Under the pieces are notes generated by a model. That model saw only the letters and a program-made list of their open reading frames with translations. It made no database searches and was not told the DNA's origin. A program made the position numbers and the translations under genes. From IMG/VR virus record IMGVR_UViG_3300042691_015921: a DNA stretch of 64,000 bases; one strand, given 5' to 3'. This DNA is from a virus. Of the stretch, positions 650-54,171 are shown in pieces (positions within the stretch are counted from its first letter, which is position 1; every line of letters begins with the position of its first letter).

Positions 650-678
650 TTTACCACCAGTGGTTAGTTTGAAATCAG

Positions 679-752
679 TAGCGACGGTGGGATTCGAACC
701 CACACTGTGGACATTTTAAGTGTCCTGACTCCTGCCGTTGGTCTACGTCGCC
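679..752 (-). tRNA. tRNA-Leu(TAA) with a short variable loop, CCA not encoded
   Basis: Acceptor GGCGACG/CGTCGCT, anticodon arm GGACA-CTTAAAA-TGTCC, T-arm GTGGG-TTCGAAT-CCCAC, discriminator A. Confidence 0.9.
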
Positions 753-762
753 TCATACCATT

Positions 763-790
763 ATTCTACCACACTTTCAGTGTGTGTCAA
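763..790 (-). promoter_or_regulatory. sigma70-type promoter for tRNA-Leu
   Basis: TTGACA-N16-TAGAAT, about 10 nt upstream of the tRNA 5' end. Confidence 0.75.
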
Positions 791-883
791 GGAGGGGCCG
801 GAGGAATCGAACCTCCGAAGGATGATCAACCCTACACCATGCCTTCCCACGGATTCGAACCGTGCCTCAACCACTGACCCCTC
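791..883 (-). ncRNA. tRNA-like RNA lacking a D-arm (8-bp acceptor, long extra arm, canonical T-arm)
   Basis: GAGGGGTC/GGCCCCTC stem, CACGG-TTCGAAT-CCGTG hairpin, GAAGG(C)ATGGT/ATCATCCTTC long arm, GGAGG-TTCGATT-CCTCC T-arm, with its own promoter at 892-919. Confidence 0.7.
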
Positions 884-891
884 TCTATCTG

Positions 892-919
892 ATTCTACCA
901 CAACCTTATCGACCGTCAA
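892..919 (-). promoter_or_regulatory. sigma70-type promoter for the tRNA-like RNA
   Basis: TTGACG-N16-TAGAAT. Confidence 0.7.
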
Positions 920-1374
920 CTCTCGTTGTCTTGAAAGAACTTGTCAAAATCTGGTTGTGTTCCCGGCCGCAACCGCCAATGAGTTACTCCCCAATTTCCA
1001 AAATCATCTTTACCTATATGATATGGACCACCTTCGTATTCGGTCATTATGGGCGTTGGATCATGGGATAGATGGTATTTTTCACACCATTCCTTGTTCT
1101 CTCTATGGATATGACCGTATCCATCATACCCGCTGACGCACAAAAAGTCAACATCCGCACCTTCCGGTGGAAGTTGTTCTGTAACTGGAATCCACCGCAA
1201 GGCGGATTCTAGTTCTTTTACTTTTTGTTCTGATTTAGCTAAAGCGTCACACCATTGTGAAATTTTGCTACGGTAATTTACGCAGCGTTCCATTACTAAT
1301 TTTACGTCCGCGTCTGAATAGTTACCTTCTTTGATGTTTTTAATTGCTAGATCTAGACCAAATGATTCACTCAT
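916..1374 (-). CDS. DUF551-like hypothetical protein
   Basis: RWIPVTEQLP...VTHWR motif after a coiled-coil. Confidence 0.6.
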   Translation of the reverse strand: MSESFGLDLAIKNIKEGNYSDADVKLVMERCVNYRSKISQWCDALAKSEQKVKELESALRWIPVTEQLPPEGADVDFLCVSGYDGYGHIHRENKEWCEKYHLSHDPTPIMTEYEGGPYHIGKDDFGNWGVTHWRLRPGTQPDFDKFFQDNES

Positions 1375-9376: not shown

Positions 9377-11491
9377 TTATACCGGAAGAACGTTGTCTGT
9401 CAACACCTGATTTTCCACAAAATCAATATAGTCTGAAATTTTCTGCTTATTAGATCCATCAATCCAATTAAGTGAGACAAGACTAAGCATAGGATACTTG
9501 TCCATTTCATTCCGTAGCGGAATTTCAAACTCTGCCTTCTTATCAAATCCCTCACGATCTTCCATAAGGTTAGAAAGTCCGAGACAATCACAAGCATTCA
9601 TGATCTTCTTACAAATATCCATATTCTTCTTAAGACTCTCGGCCTTCTCCTGATAATCGGCAACGATCTGCTTTGCCCTGTTATCAGTAGAGGTATTCAA
9701 AATAGCACTGTGAAGGTGAGTAAAACCGATAGACGGGGCATGACGCATATCATAGATATCATCCTTGTAAGTGGTGAAAATATCCTTCACCATATCAATG
9801 AAATACTCCGGGCCTTCCCAATTATCTCGACTTTCAAGCTTTCGGCTTGCCACCGTAGACTCTGGCACGAAAATAAACTTCTTGTCAAAGAAACGATGCC
9901 GATAGCAAATGATAAGCATCTGCTTGATCACCGAAATACTAATCGTCCTATTGTTAATAATTACGTCCTGAGCGTAACTACCCCTCGTCTTCCTAATGGG
10001 AATATAAACAGCATCTTCTTCCTTAACGCTCAATCCGCAGGTCTTAAAGCTTTCGGAATACTGGTCAAAATACTCCACCAGACCATAGGTTCGATCAGCA
10101 ACCGTGTAGGACTGCTTCTCTGGCTTTGGCATGGAGGAAACAAGAATCACATCCTTGCGAGTTGCTCCACCAAGAATATCATAGAATGCACAATCGTCAA
10201 CAGTCTCATTCTCTGCGAGAGTATAGACGTAGACATGCCCGCGATTATTATCCTTGAGATACTGACGAACCCGGCCAACTCCTCCTCGCTTCAAGTCATC
10301 AATTGCGAACACTACATTCTCGCCAAAATGAACAGTCAGAAGATCGCGGTCAATATTGATCTTGCTACGAAAGTTAGACTTAGAAGCAGACATTACAATC
10401 TTCGTTCCGGTGGAAACGCTATTCATGCCCATAGAATCAAAAAGCTTCATTCCATTCCACATCATAGAATCTTTAAGTTGAGAAGTAACTTGCCTAACAG
10501 AACTACAACGGTCTTGAATCTCCACGTACTTTTTACGAGCAAGGAAAAGAGATGGCTGGCTAGAGATAGACGTTTCAATGCTATTCTTAATATCCTTCAT
10601 GATATGAATAAGCATTTCATGAAGCTTCGCCTTAGTCTGTGGATTGAAAGACAGACTCTCTCGGCTAGGAGTAAAGTCAACATCTCCAATATTCACATAC
10701 ATAATCAACCCACGAAGATTGTAGCAGAAAATACTAACAGAATCATCCTCAAACATGCGGCTGAGTTCACAGTTATCAACGTTATAAGGAACCTGTCCCA
10801 TCACAACATAGTTATCGGCCATGTCATGAAATGCCCACTTACCATCATTATCAGAAATGATAGGCTCAGGCATGTTCATATTAATGTTAGCATTGACAAT
10901 AGGCTTAACCTTCCAATACTTATAGAATTCACCAGCGATGGTATGAAACTTGCTAATGTCTCCAGACCGGACTGGCACAGAAACCTTAATACCATTCGGC
11001 TCATCGGTAGAAGAGGTTTCCATCTTCACGAACTGATAATCTCCCGTTGTATCCTTGAACCCGGAGTAAATCCGCTTTTCTCCGTTCAGATAGGCTTCCA
11101 CGGTGAAACTGTTCGAATAGGCAAGAGGACTCTTGCTTCCAAGACCAAGACAGCCGAGAAGATCATTGCTCTCAGTCTTTGTGCTTTTAAAGAAGGTGGT
11201 GTAGAGAATCATGCACATATCGTCAGTCATGCTGATTCCAAAATCACGCACATAGAAATACGGCTCAATTGCAGTAGGAAGGTGGACTTCAAACGGCTTG
11301 TCCGCACATCCCGCGTCAACATGGGCATCATACGCATTGGTAGAAAGTTCACGAATAACGGCAAATTCCTTGTGGGAATACATGTCATTAGACAGAACCA
11401 TAAAAGCTTTTGCCGATCCTTCAATGGAATAGCTTTTCGAAACAAGACCAGCAGACTTCTCAACGCTCGACCCGGCAGAATACATCTTCAT
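9377..11491 (-). CDS. rIIA: rIIA-like protein (N-terminal GHKL ATPase)
   Basis: LSNDMYS..AVIRELSTNAYDAH, VRDFGISM, STK..SND..G.LGLGSKSP, FTPSRESL. Confidence 0.9.
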   Translation of the reverse strand: MKMYSAGSSVEKSAGLVSKSYSIEGSAKAFMVLSNDMYSHKEFAVIRELSTNAYDAHVDAGCADKPFEVHLPTAIEPYFYVRDFGISMTDDMCMILYTTFFKSTKTESNDLLGCLGLGSKSPLAYSNSFTVEAYLNGEKRIYSGFKDTTGDYQFVKMETSSTDEPNGIKVSVPVRSGDISKFHTIAGEFYKYWKVKPIVNANINMNMPEPIISDNDGKWAFHDMADNYVVMGQVPYNVDNCELSRMFEDDSVSIFCYNLRGLIMYVNIGDVDFTPSRESLSFNPQTKAKLHEMLIHIMKDIKNSIETSISSQPSLFLARKKYVEIQDRCSSVRQVTSQLKDSMMWNGMKLFDSMGMNSVSTGTKIVMSASKSNFRSKINIDRDLLTVHFGENVVFAIDDLKRGGVGRVRQYLKDNNRGHVYVYTLAENETVDDCAFYDILGGATRKDVILVSSMPKPEKQSYTVADRTYGLVEYFDQYSESFKTCGLSVKEEDAVYIPIRKTRGSYAQDVIINNRTISISVIKQMLIICYRHRFFDKKFIFVPESTVASRKLESRDNWEGPEYFIDMVKDIFTTYKDDIYDMRHAPSIGFTHLHSAILNTSTDNRAKQIVADYQEKAESLKKNMDICKKIMNACDCLGLSNLMEDREGFDKKAEFEIPLRNEMDKYPMLSLVSLNWIDGSNKQKISDYIDFVENQVLTDNVLPV

Positions 11492-12505: not shown

Positions 12506-13597
12506 TTATTTCTTAAGTAAATTGTATTTATGAATAGCAGAAGCTATGACCTGATGCATGTCATAGTATCTATATTCGGCTAGTCTACCGCCAAAAATAA
12601 ACTTATTTGTATCTATCAGCGACTGATATCTACCAAATAATTCGTTGTTTAGTGTAGTATTGACAGGATAGAATCTCTCCAAACCGTCTTCATAGTCTTG
12701 TGGAAACTCTTTAGTTATTACGGTATGACGAGAATCTAATTTGTCGAAATGTTTATACTCCACAATTCTAGTATGTTTAACATCTACGTCTGTGTAGTTT
12801 ACTATAGAAGTCCCTTGAAAGTCGCAATTTTCGATGTATAATTGCTCAAATCGTAAACTTCTCCAGTCTAATTTCCCTAGACTTGAGTTAAAAAACTCAT
12901 CAATTGGGCCTGTATATACAACCTTCTTTGCTATCTTATCCCACTCATCCCTGCTTGTCAAGTAGTCTTCATCTAGTATTACCTTAATGCCGTCCAGCAT
13001 ATTCTCTACTAGTTTGGTATATCCAACTGTTGGTAGTCCTTCATAATTATCTGAGAAATATCTGTCGTCAAATGTTTTTCGGATTGGGATACGTTTTATT
13101 ATTGATGCTGGCAAATCGCGGGGATGTTTATCCCATTGTTTAGTTGTATATCCCTCGACAAATATCTCATATAATTCTCTGCCGCATTTATCTAGAATCC
13201 ATTCTTCTAGATTCTTGGGATTGGTATTAACTACCCTAACTGATTCAAGATATCTAATTGCTTCTTCTGGAGTTTTTACATTTGCTACTTGATAAAGGGT
13301 GAATAAATTAATCGGGAATGAATATAATCTATCCTTGTAATTAACTTTTACTCTGTGCGAATACCCATTAAAAGAGGAGAATCTATTTATAAATTGCCAG
13401 ATACGCTCATCATTTGTATGAAATATATGCGGACCATATTTGTGTACATTGATCCCAGCAATATTTTCTGTGTAACAGTTTCCGGCTATATGTTGTCGTT
13501 TATCTATTACAAGACAAGAATAGCCATCATCCTGAGCAATCCTGGCGAATGTCGATCCAAATAGACCGGCACCAACAATCAGAAAATCATATTGCAT
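12506..13597 (-). CDS. glf: UDP-galactopyranose mutase
   Basis: GAGLFG FAD motif, HIAGNCY, HKYGPHIFHT, GYTTKQW, GRLAEYRYYDMHQV. Confidence 0.96.
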   Translation of the reverse strand: MQYDFLIVGAGLFGSTFARIAQDDGYSCLVIDKRQHIAGNCYTENIAGINVHKYGPHIFHTNDERIWQFINRFSSFNGYSHRVKVNYKDRLYSFPINLFTLYQVANVKTPEEAIRYLESVRVVNTNPKNLEEWILDKCGRELYEIFVEGYTTKQWDKHPRDLPASIIKRIPIRKTFDDRYFSDNYEGLPTVGYTKLVENMLDGIKVILDEDYLTSRDEWDKIAKKVVYTGPIDEFFNSSLGKLDWRSLRFEQLYIENCDFQGTSIVNYTDVDVKHTRIVEYKHFDKLDSRHTVITKEFPQDYEDGLERFYPVNTTLNNELFGRYQSLIDTNKFIFGGRLAEYRYYDMHQVIASAIHKYNLLKK

Positions 13598-19322: not shown

Positions 19323-19370
19323 TTCTATCTCCTTTTCCACCATTCTACCATACTTTTAGTGTATGTCAAG

Positions 19371-19442
19371 TGACCCCACGGGGAATCGAACCCCGGTTAA
19401 CGGATTGAAAGTCCGCTTTCCTAGCCGCTAGAAGATGGGGCC
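19371..19442 (-). tRNA. tRNA-Glu(TTC)
   Basis: Acceptor GGCCCCA/TGGGGTC; anticodon loop CTTTCAA; T-loop TTCGATT. Confidence 0.93.
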
Positions 19443-33710: not shown

Positions 33711-34771
33711 GTTGCGGACAGAATTGTAATTGCAATTGCAAGAAAGCTATTATTACTGGAATAACCGGACAGGACGGATCACATCTCGCTGACTTTCTTT
33801 TATCAAGAGGATATAAGGTTGTTGGCATAACCCGACGTTCTTCTACTGATAATACCGGTAGGATTAAACACCTTCTTGACCATCCTAATTTTAAATTAGT
33901 GGATGGAGATATTACTGATTATTCTAGTATTGTAAATGTATTACTAAAATATGCCCCAAGACAAAAAGTATGTGAATTCTATAATCTTGCGGCACAATCA
34001 CACGTTGCCGTTTCTTTTAAACAGCCCGGATTAACATGGGATGTTACCGCCAAAGGATGTTTAAATATTCTACAGGCTATTGTTGATTTGCAGTTAACCA
34101 ACAATGTCAAATTCTATCAAGCCAGTAGTAGTGAAATGTTTGGTAAAAATTACGATGTTGTTGATGGTAAGAAAGTTCAAAGTGAAACTACAAGATTTTT
34201 GCCACAAAGCCCATACGCAATAGCAAAATGTGCCGCTCATGAGGCTGTAAGACTCTATCGTGAAGCGTATGGAATACATGCTAGTGCCGGAATATTATTT
34301 AACCACGAAGGGCCAAGGCGTGGAGAAACTTTCGTTACACGCAAGATTACAAAGTGGATTGGGGATTTTTGTAAACATATAGTGTCCAACGGAGTCGAAG
34401 TACCATTTCCGAAGCTACGTCTAGGGAATCTTGAAGCATTTAGAGATTGGGGGTACGCAGGAGATTACGTGGAAGCCATGTGGATGATGTTACAACAGGA
34501 TATTCCTGATGATTATGTCATTTGTACTGGTGAAACTCATTCTATTCGGGAGTTCTTAGACGTAGCCTTTAATAGAATTGGCATTAGGGACTGGTCAGAA
34601 TATGTAGTACAAGACCCAGAATTTTATAGACCGGCAGAAGTAGACTATCTACTAGGTGATAACACAAAGGCCACAAATAAATTAGGATGGAGGCCAAAGA
34701 CTTCCTTTGAGGAACTTGTATCAATGATGCTACAACATGATTTAAATAATGAATTACAAAGTAGTTGTTAA
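33707..34771 (+). CDS. gmd: GDP-mannose 4,6-dehydratase
   Basis: ITGITGQDGS, NLAAQSHV, YQASSSEMFG, SPYAIAK, LFNHE.PRRGETFVTRKIT, RPAEVD.LLGD. Confidence 0.96.
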   Translation: MSCGQNCNCNCKKAIITGITGQDGSHLADFLLSRGYKVVGITRRSSTDNTGRIKHLLDHPNFKLVDGDITDYSSIVNVLLKYAPRQKVCEFYNLAAQSHVAVSFKQPGLTWDVTAKGCLNILQAIVDLQLTNNVKFYQASSSEMFGKNYDVVDGKKVQSETTRFLPQSPYAIAKCAAHEAVRLYREAYGIHASAGILFNHEGPRRGETFVTRKITKWIGDFCKHIVSNGVEVPFPKLRLGNLEAFRDWGYAGDYVEAMWMMLQQDIPDDYVICTGETHSIREFLDVAFNRIGIRDWSEYVVQDPEFYRPAEVDYLLGDNTKATNKLGWRPKTSFEELVSMMLQHDLNNELQSSC

Positions 34772-35714: not shown

Positions 35715-36343
35715 AAAATGATAAAGACTTACTACACGATTTACACAATTATAGTGCCAATATCAATACAAGAGAGATATTCCTACATAATTCTTTAATG
35801 TCGGACGATAACCAAAATCCCGGCGTGGAATATAAAATGGCTACCGCATTTATTAAAAATATAAGGGTACTGGAAGGCCGGTCATCTGATCCAATTAAAA
35901 TTCATATGCAAAGTATTGGCGGGGAATGGGCTGATGGGATGGCAATATATGACGCTATCACGATGTGTAAATCTCATGTTACTATTATCGCCTATGGTCA
36001 AGCGGAGTCAATGAGTAGTATTATCTTACAAGCGGCAGATGAGCGGCTAATTACCCCGAATACATACTTTATGTGTCACTTTGGTAGTTCTTATGGGGGT
36101 GGTGATTTCCAAAACGTTCATAATTGGATGGAACAAGACCGGAAGTTTTTACATGTAATGATGGATATATACACCCGAAAATGTGTGGATGGGGAGTTCT
36201 TCAAAGACAAGTTTAATAAAAAGCCGACAGAAAATCAAGTAAAACAATATCTAATGAGAAAGCTTAAGTCTGGAGACTGGTATCTAAGTGCAAAAGAAGC
36301 GGTCTATTATGGCTTTGCAGATAGGGTAGTGACCTCATGGTAA
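35711..36343 (+). CDS. clpP: ClpP-family serine protease
   Basis: SIGG, GQAESMSSIILQA (Ser), FMCH (His), DWYLSAKEAV.YG.AD (Asp). Confidence 0.85.
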   Translation: MKNDKDLLHDLHNYSANINTREIFLHNSLMSDDNQNPGVEYKMATAFIKNIRVLEGRSSDPIKIHMQSIGGEWADGMAIYDAITMCKSHVTIIAYGQAESMSSIILQAADERLITPNTYFMCHFGSSYGGGDFQNVHNWMEQDRKFLHVMMDIYTRKCVDGEFFKDKFNKKPTENQVKQYLMRKLKSGDWYLSAKEAVYYGFADRVVTSW

Positions 36344-39300
36344 ATGTAGAGATTAAAGACAGAACTGTTATAACAGAACTTAATAATGCATGGTTAAATC
36401 TAAATGTAGATGACCGGTTTATAATTAATCCTCTAGATAGACTAAAGACAGATGACCCGGAGGAATTTTATAAGCGACTAACTTGCTTATTTATGAACCC
36501 GGAATACTTTTCATTTATATGCAAGCATTTACTAAATATCGACCTATTACCAATGCAGGCGTTGATATTACAAGAGATGTGGAATAGAAAATTTCCAATG
36601 CTTGTGGGGACAAGAGGGCTGGGGAAAGCGATTAGGCCAGATGAAAAAATTAGGGTTAAAAATGGATGGAAGTCGATGCGTGATATCGAAGTTGGTGATC
36701 ATGTATATAGCTCTGATGGAACCTTATGCAATGTTATTTACAAGACAGAGTTGCAAAAAAATCTAGTAATGTATCGCATCTCATTAAGAGATGGCAGGAC
36801 CATAGACTGCTGTGAAGATCATATGTGGAAAGTATGGGATAAGAATAAAAACCAAGATCCAAAAAATCCCACTATATGGTCAGAGTTAAAAACAAAGGAC
36901 TTAGCAGATAATTATTTCTACGTGAGAAAAGATAGTAAATCTAAGACTCCAAAAGTCTGCAAAGAATACAGATATGCTTTACCAGTTAATAAGGCATTAA
37001 TGAATGAGGAAGAGTCTATTTTGCCATTGCATCCGTATGTTGTTGGCGTTTTATTAGGAGATGGAACATTAACGCAAAATGCAATTGTCATATCATCTAG
37101 GGATTCGGAATTACTAGATAGATTTCAATCGCTATTGCCTTATGGTTATGTATTGAAGGCACGAAACGATATAGACTATGCAATTATAAGATCTGATAAG
37201 AAGGTTTTACCATTTCATCATTTATGTAGAGAAGTTAAAATCTGGGGACATAATTCACATACAAAATTCATTCCAGACCTATATAAGTTTGCATCTTATA
37301 ATCAGAAGCTTGAGTTAATAAAAGGACTAATGGATACAGACGGATGGTCCGATTGTAGAACAATAGAGTATTATACAGTTTCAGAAAAGCTTTGTAATGA
37401 CTTCATGGATGTAATTAGGTCATTAGGTATTTCTTGCAGCAAAAAAATCAAACCGTCATATATAGGAAAAAGAAGATACGCAGACTGTTATAAAATAAGG
37501 ATCTATACTGATCAAGGAATATTTTCTTTAACAAGAAAGCTATCGTATCTGAATCATAAAAAATCAAAAGCTGGTGAGTCTAAATATGAAAAGATTTTTA
37601 TCACAAATATTGAGCGAATTGAAAACGCAGAGGGATACTGCATAAAAGTGGATAGTCTAGATAGTACATATATCACCAAAGATTATATAGTAACTCACAA
37701 TACGTTTCTTCTATCGCTATATTGTATACTACGTGCATCACTGATACCAAACAGAAAAATTGTAGTAGTAGGTTCAGCATTCAGACAGTCAAAGTATCTT
37801 CATGATTATATGGAGAACATATGGAAGAATGCACCAATATTAAGAGACATGTGTGACAGTAATAGTGGCCCAAGAAGAGACGTTGATATGTGCAAAATGA
37901 CGATTAATGGAAGCACCATATCGGCGTTACCTATCGGGGACGGTCAAAAAATTCGCGGACAGCGAGCCAATGATATTGTCGCGGATGAGTTTGCGAGCAT
38001 GTCCCGAGAAGTTTTTGAAAATGTTATCGCCGGCTTCGCGGCCGTTTCTGCCTCTCCAGTAGAAAACGTTAAAAGAATGGCTATGGAAGCAAAAGCCCTA
38101 GAAATGGGTATTGATCCATCTTCACTTTATGGAGAGAAAAAAATACTTGAAGCTGCTAAAAGCAATCAAATTATCATATCTGGAACAGCATATTACGAAT
38201 TTAATCATTTTGCCGAATACTGGAAAAGATGGAAGACTATCATAGAAACTCGCGGCGATAGAAAAGCGATAATGAACAATGTATTTAATGGCGAGGAAAT
38301 ACCTCCTTCTTTTAAATGGGATGATTATTCTATTATCAGAATACCGGTCGATTTAGTACCAAGAGGATTCATGGATGAAGGACAAATCGCACGTTCTAAA
38401 GCAACTATTCATAATGGCCTCTATCTTATGGAGTTTGGTGCTGTATTTACAAAAGATAGTAAAGGATTTTTCAAGAGAAGTTTAATTGAGTCTTGTGTTG
38501 GAACAGATTCAAAGCCCGTAAAGATTGCAAGCGGGGATATATACTTTGATCCTCTTTTACGTGGAAATAAAAATGAAAAGTATGTCATGGCTATTGACCC
38601 GGCGTCAGAAGTAGATAATTTTAGTATTATTATTCTAGAACTCCATCAAGACCATAGGCGGGTTGTACATTGTTGGACCACTACAAGAAAAGATCATACA
38701 GAGCGTGTAAAGAAAGGTCTGACTAAAGAGAATAACTTCTATAGCTATTGTGCAAGAAAAATTAGAGATTTAATGAACTTATTCCAAATTGTGCATATTG
38801 CTATGGACGCACAGGGCGGCGGTTATTCAGTTGCGGAAGCATTACATGATAATAGTCAATTACAGCCCGGAGAGATTGCTATTTGGCCGATCATTGATGA
38901 AGAAAAACCACAGCCGTCAGATGATCAGCCAGGATTACATATTTTAGAGATGTGTCAATTTGCCAAGTATGATTGGTATTCTGACGCTAACCATGGACTA
39001 CGTAAAGACTTAGAAGATAAAACATTACTATTCCCAAGATTTGATCCAGTTACTATAGGTTTATCAATTGAAGAAGATAAAGCAAATAATAGACTTTATG
39101 ATACATTAGAAGATTGTGTCATGGAAATTGAAGAACTTAAGAATGAACTATCATTAATTGAAGTTAGTGAGAGTATAAATGGACGTATGCGATGGGACAC
39201 CCCAGAAGTTAAAGTAGGGGTTGGCAAAAAACAAAGAATGCGTAAGGATAGATATTCCGCATTAATTATGGCAAATATGGCGGGAAGAAATATTGACCTT

Positions 39301-39426
39301 GGCGAAAAGCAGGCGACATATTCTGCCTACGGTGGATTTGCCGTAAAGAGCAACGCACAGAGATTTGAAGGTGCTACATTTTCTGGTCCCAACTGGTTTA
39401 CTTCACAAATGAATAACATTTACTAA
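36337..39426 (+). CDS. terL: terminase large subunit with an intein
   Basis: Walker A GTRGLGK|T split by the intein; Walker B IVADE; nuclease-domain MAIDPAS. Confidence 0.9.
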   Translation: MVNVEIKDRTVITELNNAWLNLNVDDRFIINPLDRLKTDDPEEFYKRLTCLFMNPEYFSFICKHLLNIDLLPMQALILQEMWNRKFPMLVGTRGLGKAIRPDEKIRVKNGWKSMRDIEVGDHVYSSDGTLCNVIYKTELQKNLVMYRISLRDGRTIDCCEDHMWKVWDKNKNQDPKNPTIWSELKTKDLADNYFYVRKDSKSKTPKVCKEYRYALPVNKALMNEEESILPLHPYVVGVLLGDGTLTQNAIVISSRDSELLDRFQSLLPYGYVLKARNDIDYAIIRSDKKVLPFHHLCREVKIWGHNSHTKFIPDLYKFASYNQKLELIKGLMDTDGWSDCRTIEYYTVSEKLCNDFMDVIRSLGISCSKKIKPSYIGKRRYADCYKIRIYTDQGIFSLTRKLSYLNHKKSKAGESKYEKIFITNIERIENAEGYCIKVDSLDSTYITKDYIVTHNTFLLSLYCILRASLIPNRKIVVVGSAFRQSKYLHDYMENIWKNAPILRDMCDSNSGPRRDVDMCKMTINGSTISALPIGDGQKIRGQRANDIVADEFASMSREVFENVIAGFAAVSASPVENVKRMAMEAKALEMGIDPSSLYGEKKILEAAKSNQIIISGTAYYEFNHFAEYWKRWKTIIETRGDRKAIMNNVFNGEEIPPSFKWDDYSIIRIPVDLVPRGFMDEGQIARSKATIHNGLYLMEFGAVFTKDSKGFFKRSLIESCVGTDSKPVKIASGDIYFDPLLRGNKNEKYVMAIDPASEVDNFSIIILELHQDHRRVVHCWTTTRKDHTERVKKGLTKENNFYSYCARKIRDLMNLFQIVHIAMDAQGGGYSVAEALHDNSQLQPGEIAIWPIIDEEKPQPSDDQPGLHILEMCQFAKYDWYSDANHGLRKDLEDKTLLFPRFDPVTIGLSIEEDKANNRLYDTLEDCVMEIEELKNELSLIEVSESINGRMRWDTPEVKVGVGKKQRMRKDRYSALIMANMAGRNIDLGEKQATYSAYGGFAVKSNAQRFEGATFSGPNWFTSQMNNIY
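36628..37701 (+). mobile_element. 358-aa class 3 intein with LAGLIDADG endonuclease
   Basis: Starts with Ala (AIRPD) and ends VTHN before Thr; VGVLLGDG and KGLMDTDG motifs; W/C/T triplet. Confidence 0.9.
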
Positions 39427-39491: not shown

Positions 39492-41591
39492 ATGAAAATG
39501 GCAGAAGATAATAAAACACCAGACAAAACACCATATATATTTTGGACTTCGGCAGAAGATCAACAGACCGCTTTTGATAAGACTGTTGGCAATGTCGATA
39601 GTTATGACGGAATTATGACATCTAATGCCGCTAGTCGTCGCTCACATATTGATATTGAGCCAAATATATCAGTCAGAACTGACTTTCTTAAGGACGATTA
39701 TTATCGCTTTCGTCCATTTGAAGAACCGGCTAGTAACTTTAAACAAGCCATGTCCATGTGCATGAAAGCATATGAGAGGGTTGGAATAGTTAAGAACGTG
39801 ATTGATCTCATGGGAGATTTTGGATCACAGGGAATTACATTAAATCATCCTAATAAAAAGATAGAAAGATTTTATCGTAGATGGTTTAAGAAGGTAAAAG
39901 GAGAAGAACGCTCTGAGAGATTTTTAAATATGTTATATCGTTGCGGAAACGTAGTGATACAAAAACGTTATGGAAAAATCTCCAAGAAACAGGAGCGTAA
40001 TTTATCTAAAGCTGGAGACTCAATAGAATTAAAAGATCTTGGAGTTTTAAAACGTGAAATACCTCTTAAATATGATTTTCTCAACCCTTTAATGATTGAT
40101 GTTGAGGGTGGATATGCCGGTGCTTTTAGCGGCGATAAAAAGTTTAAGATGAAGATTAGTAATTCTGTACGTAAATCATTTGAAAAGAATGGTAAATATA
40201 TAGAGAATCTCCCTTCTCAAATAAAAAAGGCATTAGAAAAACAAGAGAGTTACATTAAACTAGATAGTGATACTATTGAAGTATTTTACTATAAGAAGGA
40301 TGATTGGGAGTTGTGGGCAAACCCAATGATCAACGCTATTATTGATGATATTATAATGCTAGAAAAAATGAAGCTAGCTGATATGTCCGCTCTAGATGGT
40401 GCTATTTCAAATATCAGACTTTGGAGATTAGGTAATCTAGAACATAAGATTTTACCAAACAAAGGTGCTATTGATAAACTACGTAATATTTTAGCGAGCA
40501 ACGTTGGCGGCGGAACAATGGATTTAGTTTGGGGTCCAGAAATTGACTTTAAAGAAAGTAATACTCAGATATATAAATTTCTTGGTTCTGAAAAATACCA
40601 GCCAGTTCTTAATAGTATTTATGCCGGTCTTGGTATTCCTCCAACTCTAACTGGATTGGCCGGTCAGTCGGGTGGATTTACTAACAATTTTATTTCTTTA
40701 AAAACGCTCATTGAAAGGCTAGAATATGGCCGCGATCTACTTTATGAATTCTGGGAAAAAGAAATAGAATATGTACAAAAGGCTATGGGTTTTAGTACCC
40801 CTGCCACATTACACTTTGAGCATATGATTTTATCAGATGAAACGGCCGAAAAGAATCTATTAATGCAGTTAGTTGATAGAGATATTATCTCCGTTGAAAC
40901 TCTTAGAGAAAGACTTGGCGAACTTAACGACGTTGAAAACTCTAGAATTAAAACAGAAGCAAGAAAGAGATATCAAAGACAAATGCCTCCAAAAGCAGAT
41001 CCATTCCATAATGGCAATGCGGATTCTGAATACAGAAAGATTGCCTTACAAAGAGGCGAAATTGGAATTGATGATGTAACAACTCTAAAGCCAAAAGAAC
41101 AAAGTCCAATAAGTACTCCTCCCGGATTACAAAATAATAAAAAGTCTCCAAATAATAATGGCAGACCAAAGTTTGCTCAAGATACAAAACCAAGAAAACA
41201 AAAGAGAGTATTACCAAAGAGTAAACCAGCACTTGCATCTCTTTTAGTTTGGAGTGCAGAAGCACAAAAGGTAATTTCTAATATAATTAATCCGGCAATG
41301 TTAAATCATTATAATAAGAAAAATCTTAGAGAATTAACAAAGGCCGAATTAACAGATTTGGAAGAAATAAAATTTAGAGTATTATGTAGCTTAACTCCAT
41401 ACGATTTAATAAATGAAGAAAAAATAGCTTTAATTCTAGAAAATAATCCGAAGGTAAGTCCATCTCAAAACGAGATGAAGACTCAATTAAAAGCGGAATT
41501 TATAGAAAATCAAGGCAGAACGCCATCTATAGATGAATTACGACAGATATATAATTTAACTTATTCATTCGATTTTTTTACAGAAAAATAA
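39492..41591 (+). CDS. portal protein
   Basis: Follows terL; AYERVGIVKNVIDLM, IYAGLGIP and LIERLE..R portal-like motifs. Confidence 0.8.
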   Translation: MKMAEDNKTPDKTPYIFWTSAEDQQTAFDKTVGNVDSYDGIMTSNAASRRSHIDIEPNISVRTDFLKDDYYRFRPFEEPASNFKQAMSMCMKAYERVGIVKNVIDLMGDFGSQGITLNHPNKKIERFYRRWFKKVKGEERSERFLNMLYRCGNVVIQKRYGKISKKQERNLSKAGDSIELKDLGVLKREIPLKYDFLNPLMIDVEGGYAGAFSGDKKFKMKISNSVRKSFEKNGKYIENLPSQIKKALEKQESYIKLDSDTIEVFYYKKDDWELWANPMINAIIDDIIMLEKMKLADMSALDGAISNIRLWRLGNLEHKILPNKGAIDKLRNILASNVGGGTMDLVWGPEIDFKESNTQIYKFLGSEKYQPVLNSIYAGLGIPPTLTGLAGQSGGFTNNFISLKTLIERLEYGRDLLYEFWEKEIEYVQKAMGFSTPATLHFEHMILSDETAEKNLLMQLVDRDIISVETLRERLGELNDVENSRIKTEARKRYQRQMPPKADPFHNGNADSEYRKIALQRGEIGIDDVTTLKPKEQSPISTPPGLQNNKKSPNNNGRPKFAQDTKPRKQKRVLPKSKPALASLLVWSAEAQKVISNIINPAMLNHYNKKNLRELTKAELTDLEEIKFRVLCSLTPYDLINEEKIALILENNPKVSPSQNEMKTQLKAEFIENQGRTPSIDELRQIYNLTYSFDFFTEK

Positions 41592-52968: not shown

Positions 52969-54171
52969 ATGCCCAGAGCTACAAATAATAATAAAAGAGT
53001 ATTTTATGCAACACAGGCTGTTGCTATTGGAGATATGGGTGCGACAACAGTTAAAGATAGCTGGCAGGCATCTACTGGAGGCACAGACTTTATTGGCACC
53101 GGAAATCTCATGATTGCACACGGACTCCAATCAATTGGTGTCACAACTAACTTTAATCTAGAACAAATTTTCGAACTTGGTCAGCTTTCTCTTTATGAGA
53201 ACTATGAAGAAGTTCCCGATATTGAAGTTACTTTTGAAAAAGTTCTTGACGGTTATACATTAATGTATCATGCCGGAACTCCAAGTGCCGTAAGTCCAAC
53301 ACTTACTGGTCGTGCCAACGCAAGAACAGACGTTAGAATGGCTGTTGGTGTTGATACAAACGAATATATGGCAAGCGGTGTCAACTCTGGTGTTGCTGAA
53401 CTATACTGCTCAGGTATGTATATTAGTTCAGTATCATATACTCTTGGAACTGATGGGAACTTTACTGAATCAACAACTTTTGTTGGCAACAATAAAGACT
53501 GGATTACAACAACAGGTACTGGCGGCGTATTAACAAGCGATGCCAACGGTGCGTTAGTTGCGGCATTAAGTACCGGTGTTTTTGGAAGCAATGCCCCAGG
53601 AAGTCCAAACAATAGCGTTCTAAGACGCAACAATCTTGTTATTGGATCTGGTTTCGTGGCATTAGGTTCTGGAACATTTAGAACAGAAGTTCCAAACCTA
53701 CTTGACGGTGGAGCGGCGGGCACTCTTACAAACTCTAAGTATATTGGCTCAACATCTGGTCCATATATTCAATCTATTAGTATAAGTTGCGATCTTGGTC
53801 GTGAAAATATTCAACAGCTTGGTAAGAAGGGGCCATACTATCGTTATGTAAGTTTTCCCGTAGATGTTACATGCGATATTGAAGTAACTGCTACTGGTGG
53901 GGACAATGTTGATGCTCTAGAAGAAGGCGATCCTTCAACCGGCAAGAATCTATCAAATCATTCGATTCAGCTTGTACTATCAGACAGCACTGTTTTCCAG
54001 CTTGGAAAGAAAAATAAGCTTACAAGCGTATCTTATGGTGGTGGTGATGCCGGCGGTGGTAATGCAACAATTACATATAGTTTTACAAATTCTAATGACT
54101 TTGTTGTACTACATTCTGGCGACCCAATGGTTATGGCAACTAGTGCTTATTGGAAAGACTGGTTTGCATGA
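52969..54171 (+). CDS. major tail tube protein
   Basis: GLQSIG.TTNF.LEQIFELGQ and a repeated IQSISIS...RE.I.QLG; Gly/Thr-rich; hairpin follows. Confidence 0.75.
   Translation: MPRATNNNKRVFYATQAVAIGDMGATTVKDSWQASTGGTDFIGTGNLMIAHGLQSIGVTTNFNLEQIFELGQLSLYENYEEVPDIEVTFEKVLDGYTLMYHAGTPSAVSPTLTGRANARTDVRMAVGVDTNEYMASGVNSGVAELYCSGMYISSVSYTLGTDGNFTESTTFVGNNKDWITTTGTGGVLTSDANGALVAALSTGVFGSNAPGSPNNSVLRRNNLVIGSGFVALGSGTFRTEVPNLLDGGAAGTLTNSKYIGSTSGPYIQSISISCDLGRENIQQLGKKGPYYRYVSFPVDVTCDIEVTATGGDNVDALEEGDPSTGKNLSNHSIQLVLSDSTVFQLGKKNKLTSVSYGGGDAGGGNATITYSFTNSNDFVVLHSGDPMVMATSAYWKDWFA

What the first reader, a model, noticed from the sequence alone, without database searches (positions are those of the whole stretch)
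791..919. Separately promoted tRNA-like RNA with no D-arm and two T-loop-like hairpins
Seen (minus strand): an 8-bp acceptor-like stem, an 11-nt unpaired linker in place of a D-arm, CACGG-TTCGAAT-CCGTG, a 10-bp extra arm, then a canonical T-arm. A promoter places the start at about its 5' end, next to tRNA-Leu. The first hairpin reads either as an anticodon arm (CGA, Ser, which fits a long variable arm) or as a second T-arm. The acceptor plus T helix totals 13 bp, like tRNA-Sec. Inference: a non-canonical tRNA or tRNA mimic, for example a decoy for anticodon nucleases or synthetases.
Basis: partly seen in the sequence, partly recalled or inferred. Interest (0 to 1): 0.7.

Follow-up and report, generated by a model that had tools for sequence, protein, structure and literature searches.

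The report
Orphan phage tRNA-shaped RNA, two T-arms
An uncultured freshwater T4-like phage carries, next to its leucine tRNA, a 92-base tRNA-shaped gene with its own promoter that has no D-arm and a second T-arm where the anticodon arm should be, so it is probably a non-decoding tRNA look-alike, but no relative could be found to show that it is conserved.

Summary
On the minus strand, 883-792 folds into an 8-bp acceptor stem, an 11-nt unpaired linker, a 5-bp/7-nt hairpin, a 10-bp arm with one bulge, and a canonical T-arm. A strong sigma-70-type promoter lies 2-3 nt upstream.

It is not an ordinary tRNA:
- ARAGORN does not call it.
- Rfam gives only a sub-threshold tRNA-Sec match (32 bits, cut-off 47).

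New results:
- The first hairpin is a T-arm by sequence, not an anticodon arm: +13.9 bits, reached by 1 of 1208 real anticodon arms. UCG, the codon a CGA anticodon would read, is the phage's rarest serine codon.
- The linker is a class II D-loop without its stem.
- The acceptor end (extra G:C pair, C at position 73) is histidine-tRNA-like.

My best reading (0.4) is an expressed, processed, non-decoding tRNA mimic. A rearranged tRNA relic (0.3) and a working D-armless tRNA (about 0.12) remain open.

No homologue was found in any collection I could search, so conservation and covariation are untested.

The scan noted this same stretch twice before. On other DNA it reported D-armless and non-decoding phage tRNA-like genes. 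The "rewired D-stem" fold of those reports is not supported here.

The parts
892..919 (-). Promoter P1: -35 TTGACG (919-914), 16-nt spacer, extended -10 TGgTAGAAT (900-892). The -35 box contains the TGA stop (918-916) of the upstream gene.
   Evidence: 10/12 consensus matches, TG present; sequence. The same promoter type occurs at 790-763 and after tRNA-Glu.
876..883 (-). Acceptor 5' strand GAGGGGUC. G883 pairs with C792 and may be read as a G-1:C73 pair.
   Evidence: pair probability 0.97 or more; for His-type statistics.
865..875 (-). Unpaired 11-nt linker AGUGGUUGAGG. It is a class II D-loop consensus (AGUGGUUGA) plus GG(C), with no 5' D-stem strand.
   Evidence: identical 9-mers in D-loops of phage tRNA-Ser, Tyr and Cys; 14/15 match to a tRNA-Cys D-arm region.
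848..864 (-). Hairpin 1, CACGG-UUCGAAU-CCGUG. It sits at the anticodon-arm position but is a consensus T-arm by sequence. Formally, its loop reads anticodon CGA.
   Evidence: +13.9 bits T-arm versus anticodon arm; BLAST matches only T-arms of other tRNAs.
817..846 (-). Extra arm: GAAGG/CCUUC plus AUGGU/AUCAU, with a bulged C841 and the loop GUAGGGUUG (contains a D-loop-like AGGGUUGA).
800..816 (-). Canonical T-arm GGAGG-UUCGAUU-CCUCC.
   Evidence: +25.6 bits as a T-arm.
791..799 (-). Acceptor 3' strand GGCCCCUC (799-792) and C791. No encoded CCA. It abuts the -35 of the next promoter.
763..790 (-). Promoter P2 (TTGACA-16-TAGAAT) for tRNA-Leu. There is no terminator between the element and it, so read-through from P1 gives a two-gene precursor.
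   Evidence: 11/12 consensus matches.
678..752 (-). tRNA-Leu(UAA), 75 nt, short variable loop: the neighbouring canonical gene.
   Evidence: 54.7 bits.
916..1374 (-). Upstream 152-aa gene (weak DUF551 match), used as the synteny anchor.

Best explanation
The element is a tRNA-derived gene for a small tRNA-shaped RNA that does not decode.

Inferred pathway: it is transcribed early from its own sigma-70-type promoter, and by read-through together with tRNA-Leu. The genuine acceptor/T-arm minihelix lets host RNase P, 3' trimming and the CCA-adding enzyme mature it like a tRNA.

Shown from sequence: the mature RNA has four helices. These are the acceptor, a second consensus T-arm in the anticodon position, a long hairpin, and the true T-arm. 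They are joined by a D-loop-like single strand. The end is histidine-tRNA-like (G-1:C73 type).

Guessed: because it shows two T-arms and a tRNA end but no usable anticodon context, it most likely acts as a mimic. It would occupy a host factor that recognises the T-arm, elbow or acceptor end of tRNAs, such as a tRNA-cutting defence nuclease, a T-arm enzyme like TruB or TrmA, or HisRS.
For: - The fold is real and dominant.
- It is tRNA-like, with 32.3 bits to tRNA-Sec end to end, but is not called as a tRNA. The only forced cloverleaf is poor.
- Hairpin 1 scores +13.9 bits as a T-arm. Only 1 of 1208 real anticodon arms reaches that score.
- Its loop, TTCGAAT, is found in 373 of 1208 T-loops and 0 of 1208 anticodon loops. 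Real Ser(CGA) arms score -3 to -26.
- UCG is the rarest Ser codon (6%; 4% in late genes), whereas the phage's canonical tRNAs read its commonest codons UUA, AAA and GAA.
- Several departures from tRNA-Ser coexist with 28 flawless base pairs, including C rather than G73, seen in 1 of 78 Ser tRNAs. That fits selection for shape better than recent decay.
- It has its own promoter of the phage's standard early type, placed 2-3 nt from the 5' end. tRNA-Leu has the same layout.
- There is precedent. T4 rnaC is a stable RNA in the T4 tRNA cluster with a T-arm, a closing helix and no anticodon. Anticodon-less tRNA-shaped genes occur in other viral contigs.
Against: - No homologue was found anywhere, so there is no conservation or covariation.
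- The closest relative of the neighbouring gene (L122, 65% identity) has a small ORF in this slot, not the element.
- There is no expression data.
- The decoy target is a guess with no linked gene.
- The linker, long arm and CGA loop together look like a class II tRNA-Ser that lost five or six bases, which a neutral relic would explain more simply.
Confidence: 0.4

Rival explanations
1. It is a relic. A class II tRNA (serine type) lost the 5' strand of its D-stem through a small deletion or rearrangement. It is now a non-functional leftover that may still be transcribed because its promoter survives.
For: - The linker is exactly a class II D-loop plus the 3' D-stem strand GGC.
- The long arm and the CGA loop are mutually consistent with tRNA-Ser.
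- 21 of the 40 nearest tRNAs by global alignment are tRNA-Ser.
- No homologue was found, and the slot holds a different cassette in L122.
- The region is a mosaic of swapped promoter-gene cassettes.
Against: - All 28 base pairs are intact.
- The gene differs from tRNA-Ser in several independent ways: a T-arm-like anticodon arm, a C discriminator, and an extra acceptor pair. A recent single deletion does not explain these.
- The alignment score is only modestly above shuffled controls (53.5 versus a maximum of 48.5).
Confidence: 0.3
2. It is a working D-armless tRNA. It would be charged by SerRS through the long arm and read UCG with anticodon CGA.
For: - The loop has U33 and A37 in a 7-nt loop on a 5-bp stem.
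- It has a long variable arm.
- An engineered tRNA-His lacking the D-arm is charged and used by E. coli EF-Tu and ribosomes (PMC11551756).
- Phages are known to carry odd (8/4) tRNA-Ser (PMC5389517).
Against: - UCG is the phage's rarest Ser codon.
- The arm is far outside the range of real anticodon arms.
- It has a C, not G73, and A2:U71, not G2:C71. These SerRS identity rules are from memory; the phage tRNA statistics are.
- The 13-bp acceptor/T branch is unlike EF-Tu substrates.
- It misses the Rfam tRNA cut-offs.
Confidence: 0.12
3. It is a cis-acting processing signal. The tRNA-like fold would recruit RNase P to cut the early polycistronic transcript after the upstream gene, in the manner of tRNA punctuation or mascRNA.
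For: - It lies 32 nt after the stop codon of the upstream gene, with no terminator.
- There is a weak mascRNA-type match (19.5 bits).
Against: tRNA-Leu, 40 nt downstream, would already provide such a cut. The element has its own promoter, which a pure processing site does not need.
Confidence: 0.08
4. It is a histidine-accepting RNA. The G-1:C73-type end would make it a HisRS substrate. It would then either soak up HisRS or histidine, or insert His at UCG.
For: - G-1:C73 occurs in 17 of 1186 phage tRNAs, and 14 of those are tRNA-His. C73 occurs in 44, of which 27 are His.
- HisRS charges D-armless tRNA-His (PMC11551756).
- The phage avoids UCG.
Against: - There is no GUG anticodon.
- The pair can equally be an ordinary eighth acceptor pair.
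- There is no supporting gene and no homologue.
Confidence: 0.05

Closest known systems
Phage T4 species 1 RNA (rnaC), the small stable RNA of the T4 tRNA cluster
   Same: Both are encoded among the tRNA genes of a T4-type phage. Both have a consensus T-arm closed by an acceptor-like helix, interior hairpins, no anticodon and no known function.
   Different: rnaC is 139 nt, has one T-arm, and a different interior. There is no sequence similarity beyond the T-loop. The element here has two T-arms and a clean 8-bp acceptor stem.
Bacterial tRNA-Sec (Rfam RF01852)
   Same: Both have an 8+5 = 13-bp acceptor/T branch and a long extra arm. It is the best Rfam match, aligned end to end.
   Different: The score is 32.3 bits against a cut-off of 47. 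There is no 6-bp D-stem or tetraloop, and no UCA anticodon.
(8/4) allo-tRNAs and phage (8/4) tRNA-Ser (Mukai et al., PMC5389517)
   Same: Both have an 8-bp acceptor stem and a long variable arm, occur in phages, and are serine-type.
   Different: Those keep a 12-bp branch (8/4 or 9/3) and a long-stemmed D-arm. This element is 8/5 with no D-arm.
D-armless tRNAs: mitochondrial tRNA-Ser(AGY) and the engineered mini HisT of E. coli (PMC11551756)
   Same: In all of these, the acceptor and anticodon-position hairpin are joined by a single strand with no D hairpin. Mini HisT shows that such RNAs can be charged and used in bacteria.
   Different: Those have 4-5-nt linkers, short variable regions and true anticodon arms. 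Here the linker is 11 nt, there is a 10-bp extra arm, and the hairpin is a T-arm by sequence. ARAGORN's mitochondrial mode does not call it at default thresholds.
tRNA-His acceptor end (G-1:C73)
   Same: Both have an extra terminal G:C pair with C at the discriminator position.
   Different: There is no GUG anticodon and no D-arm, and there is a long extra arm.

Membership tests
tRNA (Rfam RF00005 / ARAGORN cloverleaf) | Score at or above the Rfam gathering cut-off, or an ARAGORN call at default settings | tested here: not met
   There was no RF00005 match at gathering or at E up to 10 (in one search lower-scoring matches of the same clan are hidden). ARAGORN's default mode made no call. At the relaxed threshold it makes only a poor tRNA-Pro(GGG) cloverleaf with mismatched D and anticodon stems.
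tRNA (Rfam RF00005 / ARAGORN cloverleaf) | D-arm hairpin between the acceptor and anticodon arms | tested here: not met
   The 11-nt linker is unpaired. The alternative GUG:CAC pairing has probability below 0.01.
tRNA (Rfam RF00005 / ARAGORN cloverleaf) | Anticodon arm with anticodon-arm sequence statistics | tested here: not met
   U33 and A37 are present, but the arm scores +13.9 bits towards a T-arm. Only 1 of 1208 real anticodon arms reaches that.
tRNA (Rfam RF00005 / ARAGORN cloverleaf) | Acceptor stem directly continuous with a consensus T-arm | tested here: met
tRNA-Sec (RF01852) | Gathering score of 47 bits | tested here: not met
   32.3 bits.
tRNA-Sec (RF01852) | 13-bp acceptor/T branch and long extra arm | tested here: met
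   8+5 bp and a 10-bp arm.
tRNA-Sec (RF01852) | UCA anticodon and a 6-bp D-stem with a 4-nt loop | tested here: not met
   The loop reads CGA and there is no D-stem.
allo-tRNA (8/4, 9/3) | 12-bp branch split 8/4 or 9/3, with a tRNA-Sec-like D-arm | tested here: not met
   The branch is 8/5 = 13 bp and there is no D-arm. The definition is taken from PMC5389517.
tRNA-Ser (class II) | Long variable arm and a class II D-loop | tested here: met
   There is a 10-bp arm. The linker AGUGGUUGA matches D-loops of phage tRNA-Ser, Tyr and Cys.
tRNA-Ser (class II) | G73 discriminator and a 3-bp D-stem | tested here: not met
   The discriminator is C. Among 78 phage tRNA-Ser, 57 have G and 1 has C. There is no D-stem.
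tRNA-His | G-1:C73 extra acceptor pair | tested here: met
   G883:C792. The feature occurs in 17 of 1186 phage tRNAs, 14 of them His. Whether RNase P leaves G883 on the RNA cannot be tested here.
tRNA-His | GUG anticodon | tested here: not met
   No GUG occurs in any loop.
tmRNA tRNA-like domain | Tag reading frame and pseudoknots, or an ARAGORN/Rfam tmRNA call | tested here: not met
   ARAGORN found no tmRNA. Rfam gave only a 17-nt T-arm match to permuted tmRNA at 9.8 bits.
'Rewired D-stem' phage tRNAs reported earlier in this scan | A D-stem rebuilt by pairing the linker with a strand beyond the anticodon arm | tested here: not met
   The only candidate pairing is GAGG 868-865 with CUUC 820-817. 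It costs +9 kcal/mol relative to the four-helix fold and has pair probability 0. No homologues exist to test covariation.
T4 rnaC-type stable RNAs | Sequence homology to rnaC | tested here: not met
   Only T-loop-length matches. The likeness is architectural.
Any expressed small RNA | A stable transcript with defined ends | not testable with these tools

The most novel reading that the evidence does not exclude
The RNA is a natural, working D-armless adaptor in bacterial translation. It would be charged through its His-type end or its long arm and would read UCG, a codon the phage itself avoids. That would make it the first natural arm-less tRNA outside mitochondria, and possibly a deliberate mistranslator of host messages.
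Probability: 0.08. Interest if true: 0.9.

Novelty: new variant of a known kind. Interest (0 to 1): 0.45.

Why it matters
Phage tRNA clusters have long been known to hold stable tRNA-like RNAs of unknown function, such as T4 species 1 and 2. Phage tRNAs are now tied to escape from host tRNA-cutting defences.

A clean four-helix RNA with two T-arms, a D-loop without a stem and a His-type end would be a compact natural test object. It could show which parts of a tRNA host enzymes and defence nucleases recognise.

If it were charged, it would contradict the published view that natural arm-less tRNAs exist only in mitochondria (PMC11551756).

As it stands it is a single orphan sequence. Its value depends on showing expression or conservation.

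Tried and rejected
**Homologue search (all negative)**
- Exact and degenerate motifs in IMG/VR.
- A two-T-loop pattern in IMG/VR gave more than 119 loci. None was homologous by covariance model R1 or by an architecture script.
- BLAST against 50,697 phage records found only T-arm-length matches.
- A motif search of 185,579 prokaryote genomes.
- Neighbouring-gene searches in IMG/VR, metagenomes and genomes.
- Whole cyanophage records that share the tRNA-Leu type.
- A look-up of a spurious ORF across the element in the protein database.

**Synteny:** L122 and L123 carry the neighbouring gene but not the element.

**Readings rejected**
- ARAGORN's relaxed tRNA-Pro(GGG) cloverleaf, which has mismatched stems.
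- An intron-containing tRNA (ARAGORN -i).
- A permuted or split tRNA, checked by eye.
- The rewired D-stem.
- The extra arm as an anticodon arm: its 9-nt loop has no U33 context.
- A plus-strand gene: the ORFs at 707-877 and 738-1136 lie antisense to a gene validated by homologues, and to the RNA genes.

**Left unresolved:** a 15-nt identity of the 5' end to the variable-loop/T-stem region of an unrelated phage tRNA-Pro. I treat it as built from consensus motifs.

Full report
**Context.** The window is part of an uncultured phage with T4-type features.
- It carries an rIIA homologue at 9377-11491 and an intein-bearing large terminase at 36337-39426. Early genes run leftward and late genes rightward.
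- No whole genome is held for it.
- Two late-region proteins (window 39492-41591 and 52969-54171) found no match in cultured phages.
- ARAGORN and Rfam call three tRNAs in the window: Leu(UAA) at 752-678, Lys(UUU) and Glu(UUC).

**The observation.** On the minus strand, 883-792 contains:
- an 8-bp acceptor stem;
- an 11-nt unpaired linker;
- a 5-bp/7-nt hairpin (CACGG-UUCGAAU-CCGUG);
- one spacer base;
- a 10-bp arm with one bulged C and a 9-nt loop;
- a canonical T-arm directly continuous with the acceptor 3' strand;
- then C791.

The four-helix fold is the minimum-energy structure, and every helix has pair probability of at least 0.97. A sigma-70-type promoter with an extended -10 lies at 919-892 and predicts a start 1-3 nt before the stem. 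An almost identical promoter at 790-763 serves tRNA-Leu with a similar short leader. The same promoter type recurs elsewhere in the early region. The stop codon of the upstream gene lies inside the -35 box, so the gap between genes is fully used. The description is confirmed.

**Is it a tRNA?**
- It is not called at default settings.
- The only Rfam family to align end to end is tRNA-Sec, at 32.3 bits against a cut-off of 47. That alignment deletes the D-arm.
- ARAGORN at a relaxed threshold forces a tRNA-Pro(GGG) cloverleaf with mismatched D and anticodon stems. That fold would break the strong hairpin, so I reject it.
- Intron and mitochondrial modes give nothing credible.

- Hairpin 1 scores +13.9 bits towards a T-arm. 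This places it at the 21st percentile of real T-arms, and only one of 1208 real anticodon arms reaches it.
- Its loop, TTCGAAT, is the commonest T-loop (373 of 1208) and never occurs as an anticodon loop.
- The six real tRNA-Ser(CGA) arms score -3 to -26.
- BLAST of the element against these tRNAs aligns hairpin 1 only to T-arms.
- UCG is the phage's rarest serine codon (6% overall, 4% in late genes). The canonical phage tRNAs match its commonest codons.

The second-T-arm reading is therefore favoured. A CGA anticodon necessarily resembles a T-loop, so this is strong evidence but not proof.

**Other parts.**
- *Linker.* It carries the class II D-loop consensus AGUGGUUGA followed by GGC, as in phage tRNA-Ser, Tyr and Cys, but lacks the 5' D-stem strand.
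- *Nearest tRNAs.* By global alignment the nearest tRNAs are enriched for tRNA-Ser (21 of the top 40). The score is only modestly above shuffled controls.
- *Acceptor end.* It is unlike tRNA-Ser: C is the discriminator in 1 of 78 Ser tRNAs. It is like tRNA-His: C73 occurs in 44 of 1186 tRNAs, 27 of them His, and G-1:C73 in 17, 14 of them His. So the tRNA-Sec-like count of 13 bp can equally be read as 12 bp plus a His-type terminal pair.
- *Rewired D-stem.* Earlier scan notes describe this fold on other phage tRNAs. Here it would pair GAGG with CUUC, costs 9 kcal/mol and has no weight in the ensemble.

**Relatives.** Every route I could use was negative.
- Motif and architecture scans of IMG/VR.
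- A covariance model built from the element, run over 1.2 Mb of tRNA-rich viral loci.
- BLAST against cultured phages.
- A motif scan of prokaryote genomes.
- Searches anchored on neighbouring genes.
- Whole cyanophage genomes that share the tRNA-Leu type.
- A look-up of a spurious ORF across the element.

The upstream protein does have relatives in metagenomes. Only two of their contigs could be read. L122 (65% identity) has a small ORF followed by a class II tRNA-Leu(UAA) and tRNA-Arg(UCU) in this slot. L123 has a polymerase gene there. Conservation, covariation and expression are therefore untested, and the region is clearly a mosaic of exchangeable promoter-gene cassettes.

**Interpretation.** The element is tRNA-derived, with a genuine acceptor/T minihelix. 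By established knowledge that minihelix is sufficient for RNase P and the CCA-adding enzyme, though I did not test this here.

My preferred reading (0.4) is an expressed, processed, non-decoding tRNA look-alike. Four things together support it:
- a consensus T-arm in the anticodon position;
- avoidance of the cognate codon;
- several independent departures from tRNA-Ser;
- 28 intact base pairs.

Its closest analogue is T4 rnaC, a stable RNA with a T-arm and closing helix in the T4 tRNA cluster. Anticodon-less tRNA-shaped genes also turned up in unrelated viral contigs. The decoy role is a guess.

A neutral relic of a class II tRNA (0.3) explains the D-loop remnant and the lack of relatives. 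It explains the other peculiarities less well.

A working D-armless tRNA (about 0.12, plus 0.05 for a His-charged form) cannot be excluded. An engineered D-armless tRNA-His is charged and used in E. coli, and the same paper states that natural arm-less tRNAs are known only from mitochondria (PMC11551756).

**Verdict.** This is a real and unusual tRNA-shaped gene. It remains a single orphan sequence without evidence of conservation or expression. I rate interest as moderate (0.45) and class it as a new variant of a known kind, the phage tRNA-like small RNAs.

Noticed in passing
window 678-752 (-): The tRNA-Leu(UAA) is only 75 nt long, with a 5-nt variable loop and a G1-U72 pair, whereas bacterial tRNA-Leu are class II. 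The same short type (87-90% identical) is annotated as tRNA-Leu in cyanophages P-SSM7, P-RSM6 and S-CREM1. The relative L122 instead carries an 85-nt class II tRNA-Leu(UAA).
   Followed up: partly
L139 678-767 (+): An unrelated GC-rich viral contig has a tRNA-Sec-like RNA (35.1 bits) with a D-arm, extra arm and T-arm. In place of an anticodon arm it has a 7-bp stem capped by a GAAA tetraloop. A truncated tRNA 5' half follows it.
   Followed up: partly
L138 11115-11172 (-): A 58-nt tRNA-like gene with acceptor, D-arm and T-arm but no anticodon arm (RF00005, 44.5 bits). ARAGORN does not call it.
   Followed up: no
L027 300-950 (-): A viral contig with a run of at least five T-arm-bearing elements, few of which ARAGORN calls as tRNAs. 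One (437-327) has the same layout as the window's element: an 8-bp acceptor with one mismatch, a short linker, a T-arm-like hairpin, a long insert and a T-arm.
   Followed up: partly
L003-L121 (IMG/VR): More than 119 viral contigs have two consensus T-loops 22-52 nt apart. In most, a normal tRNA is followed closely by a lone T-arm hairpin or partial tRNA. Some are tmRNA 3' ends.
   Followed up: partly
window 892-919, 763-790 and 19349-19378 (-): The early promoters share the form TTGAC(A/G)-16 nt-TGgTAGAAT. The P1 spacer contains GTCGATAA, and the upstream gene's TGA stop lies inside the -35 box.
   Followed up: no
window 36337-39426 (+): The large terminase subunit is interrupted by an intein with Hint and LAGLIDADG homing-endonuclease domains.
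   Followed up: no
window 12506-13597 (-) and 33707-34771 (+): The phage encodes a UDP-galactopyranose mutase and a nucleotide-sugar epimerase, which suggests sugar modification of DNA or of the surface.
   Followed up: no
L142 2431-2515 (+), phage P-SSM7: An annotated tRNA-Asn of 85 nt, which implies a long variable arm on an asparagine tRNA. It sits next to a gene annotated as tRNA ligase.
   Followed up: no
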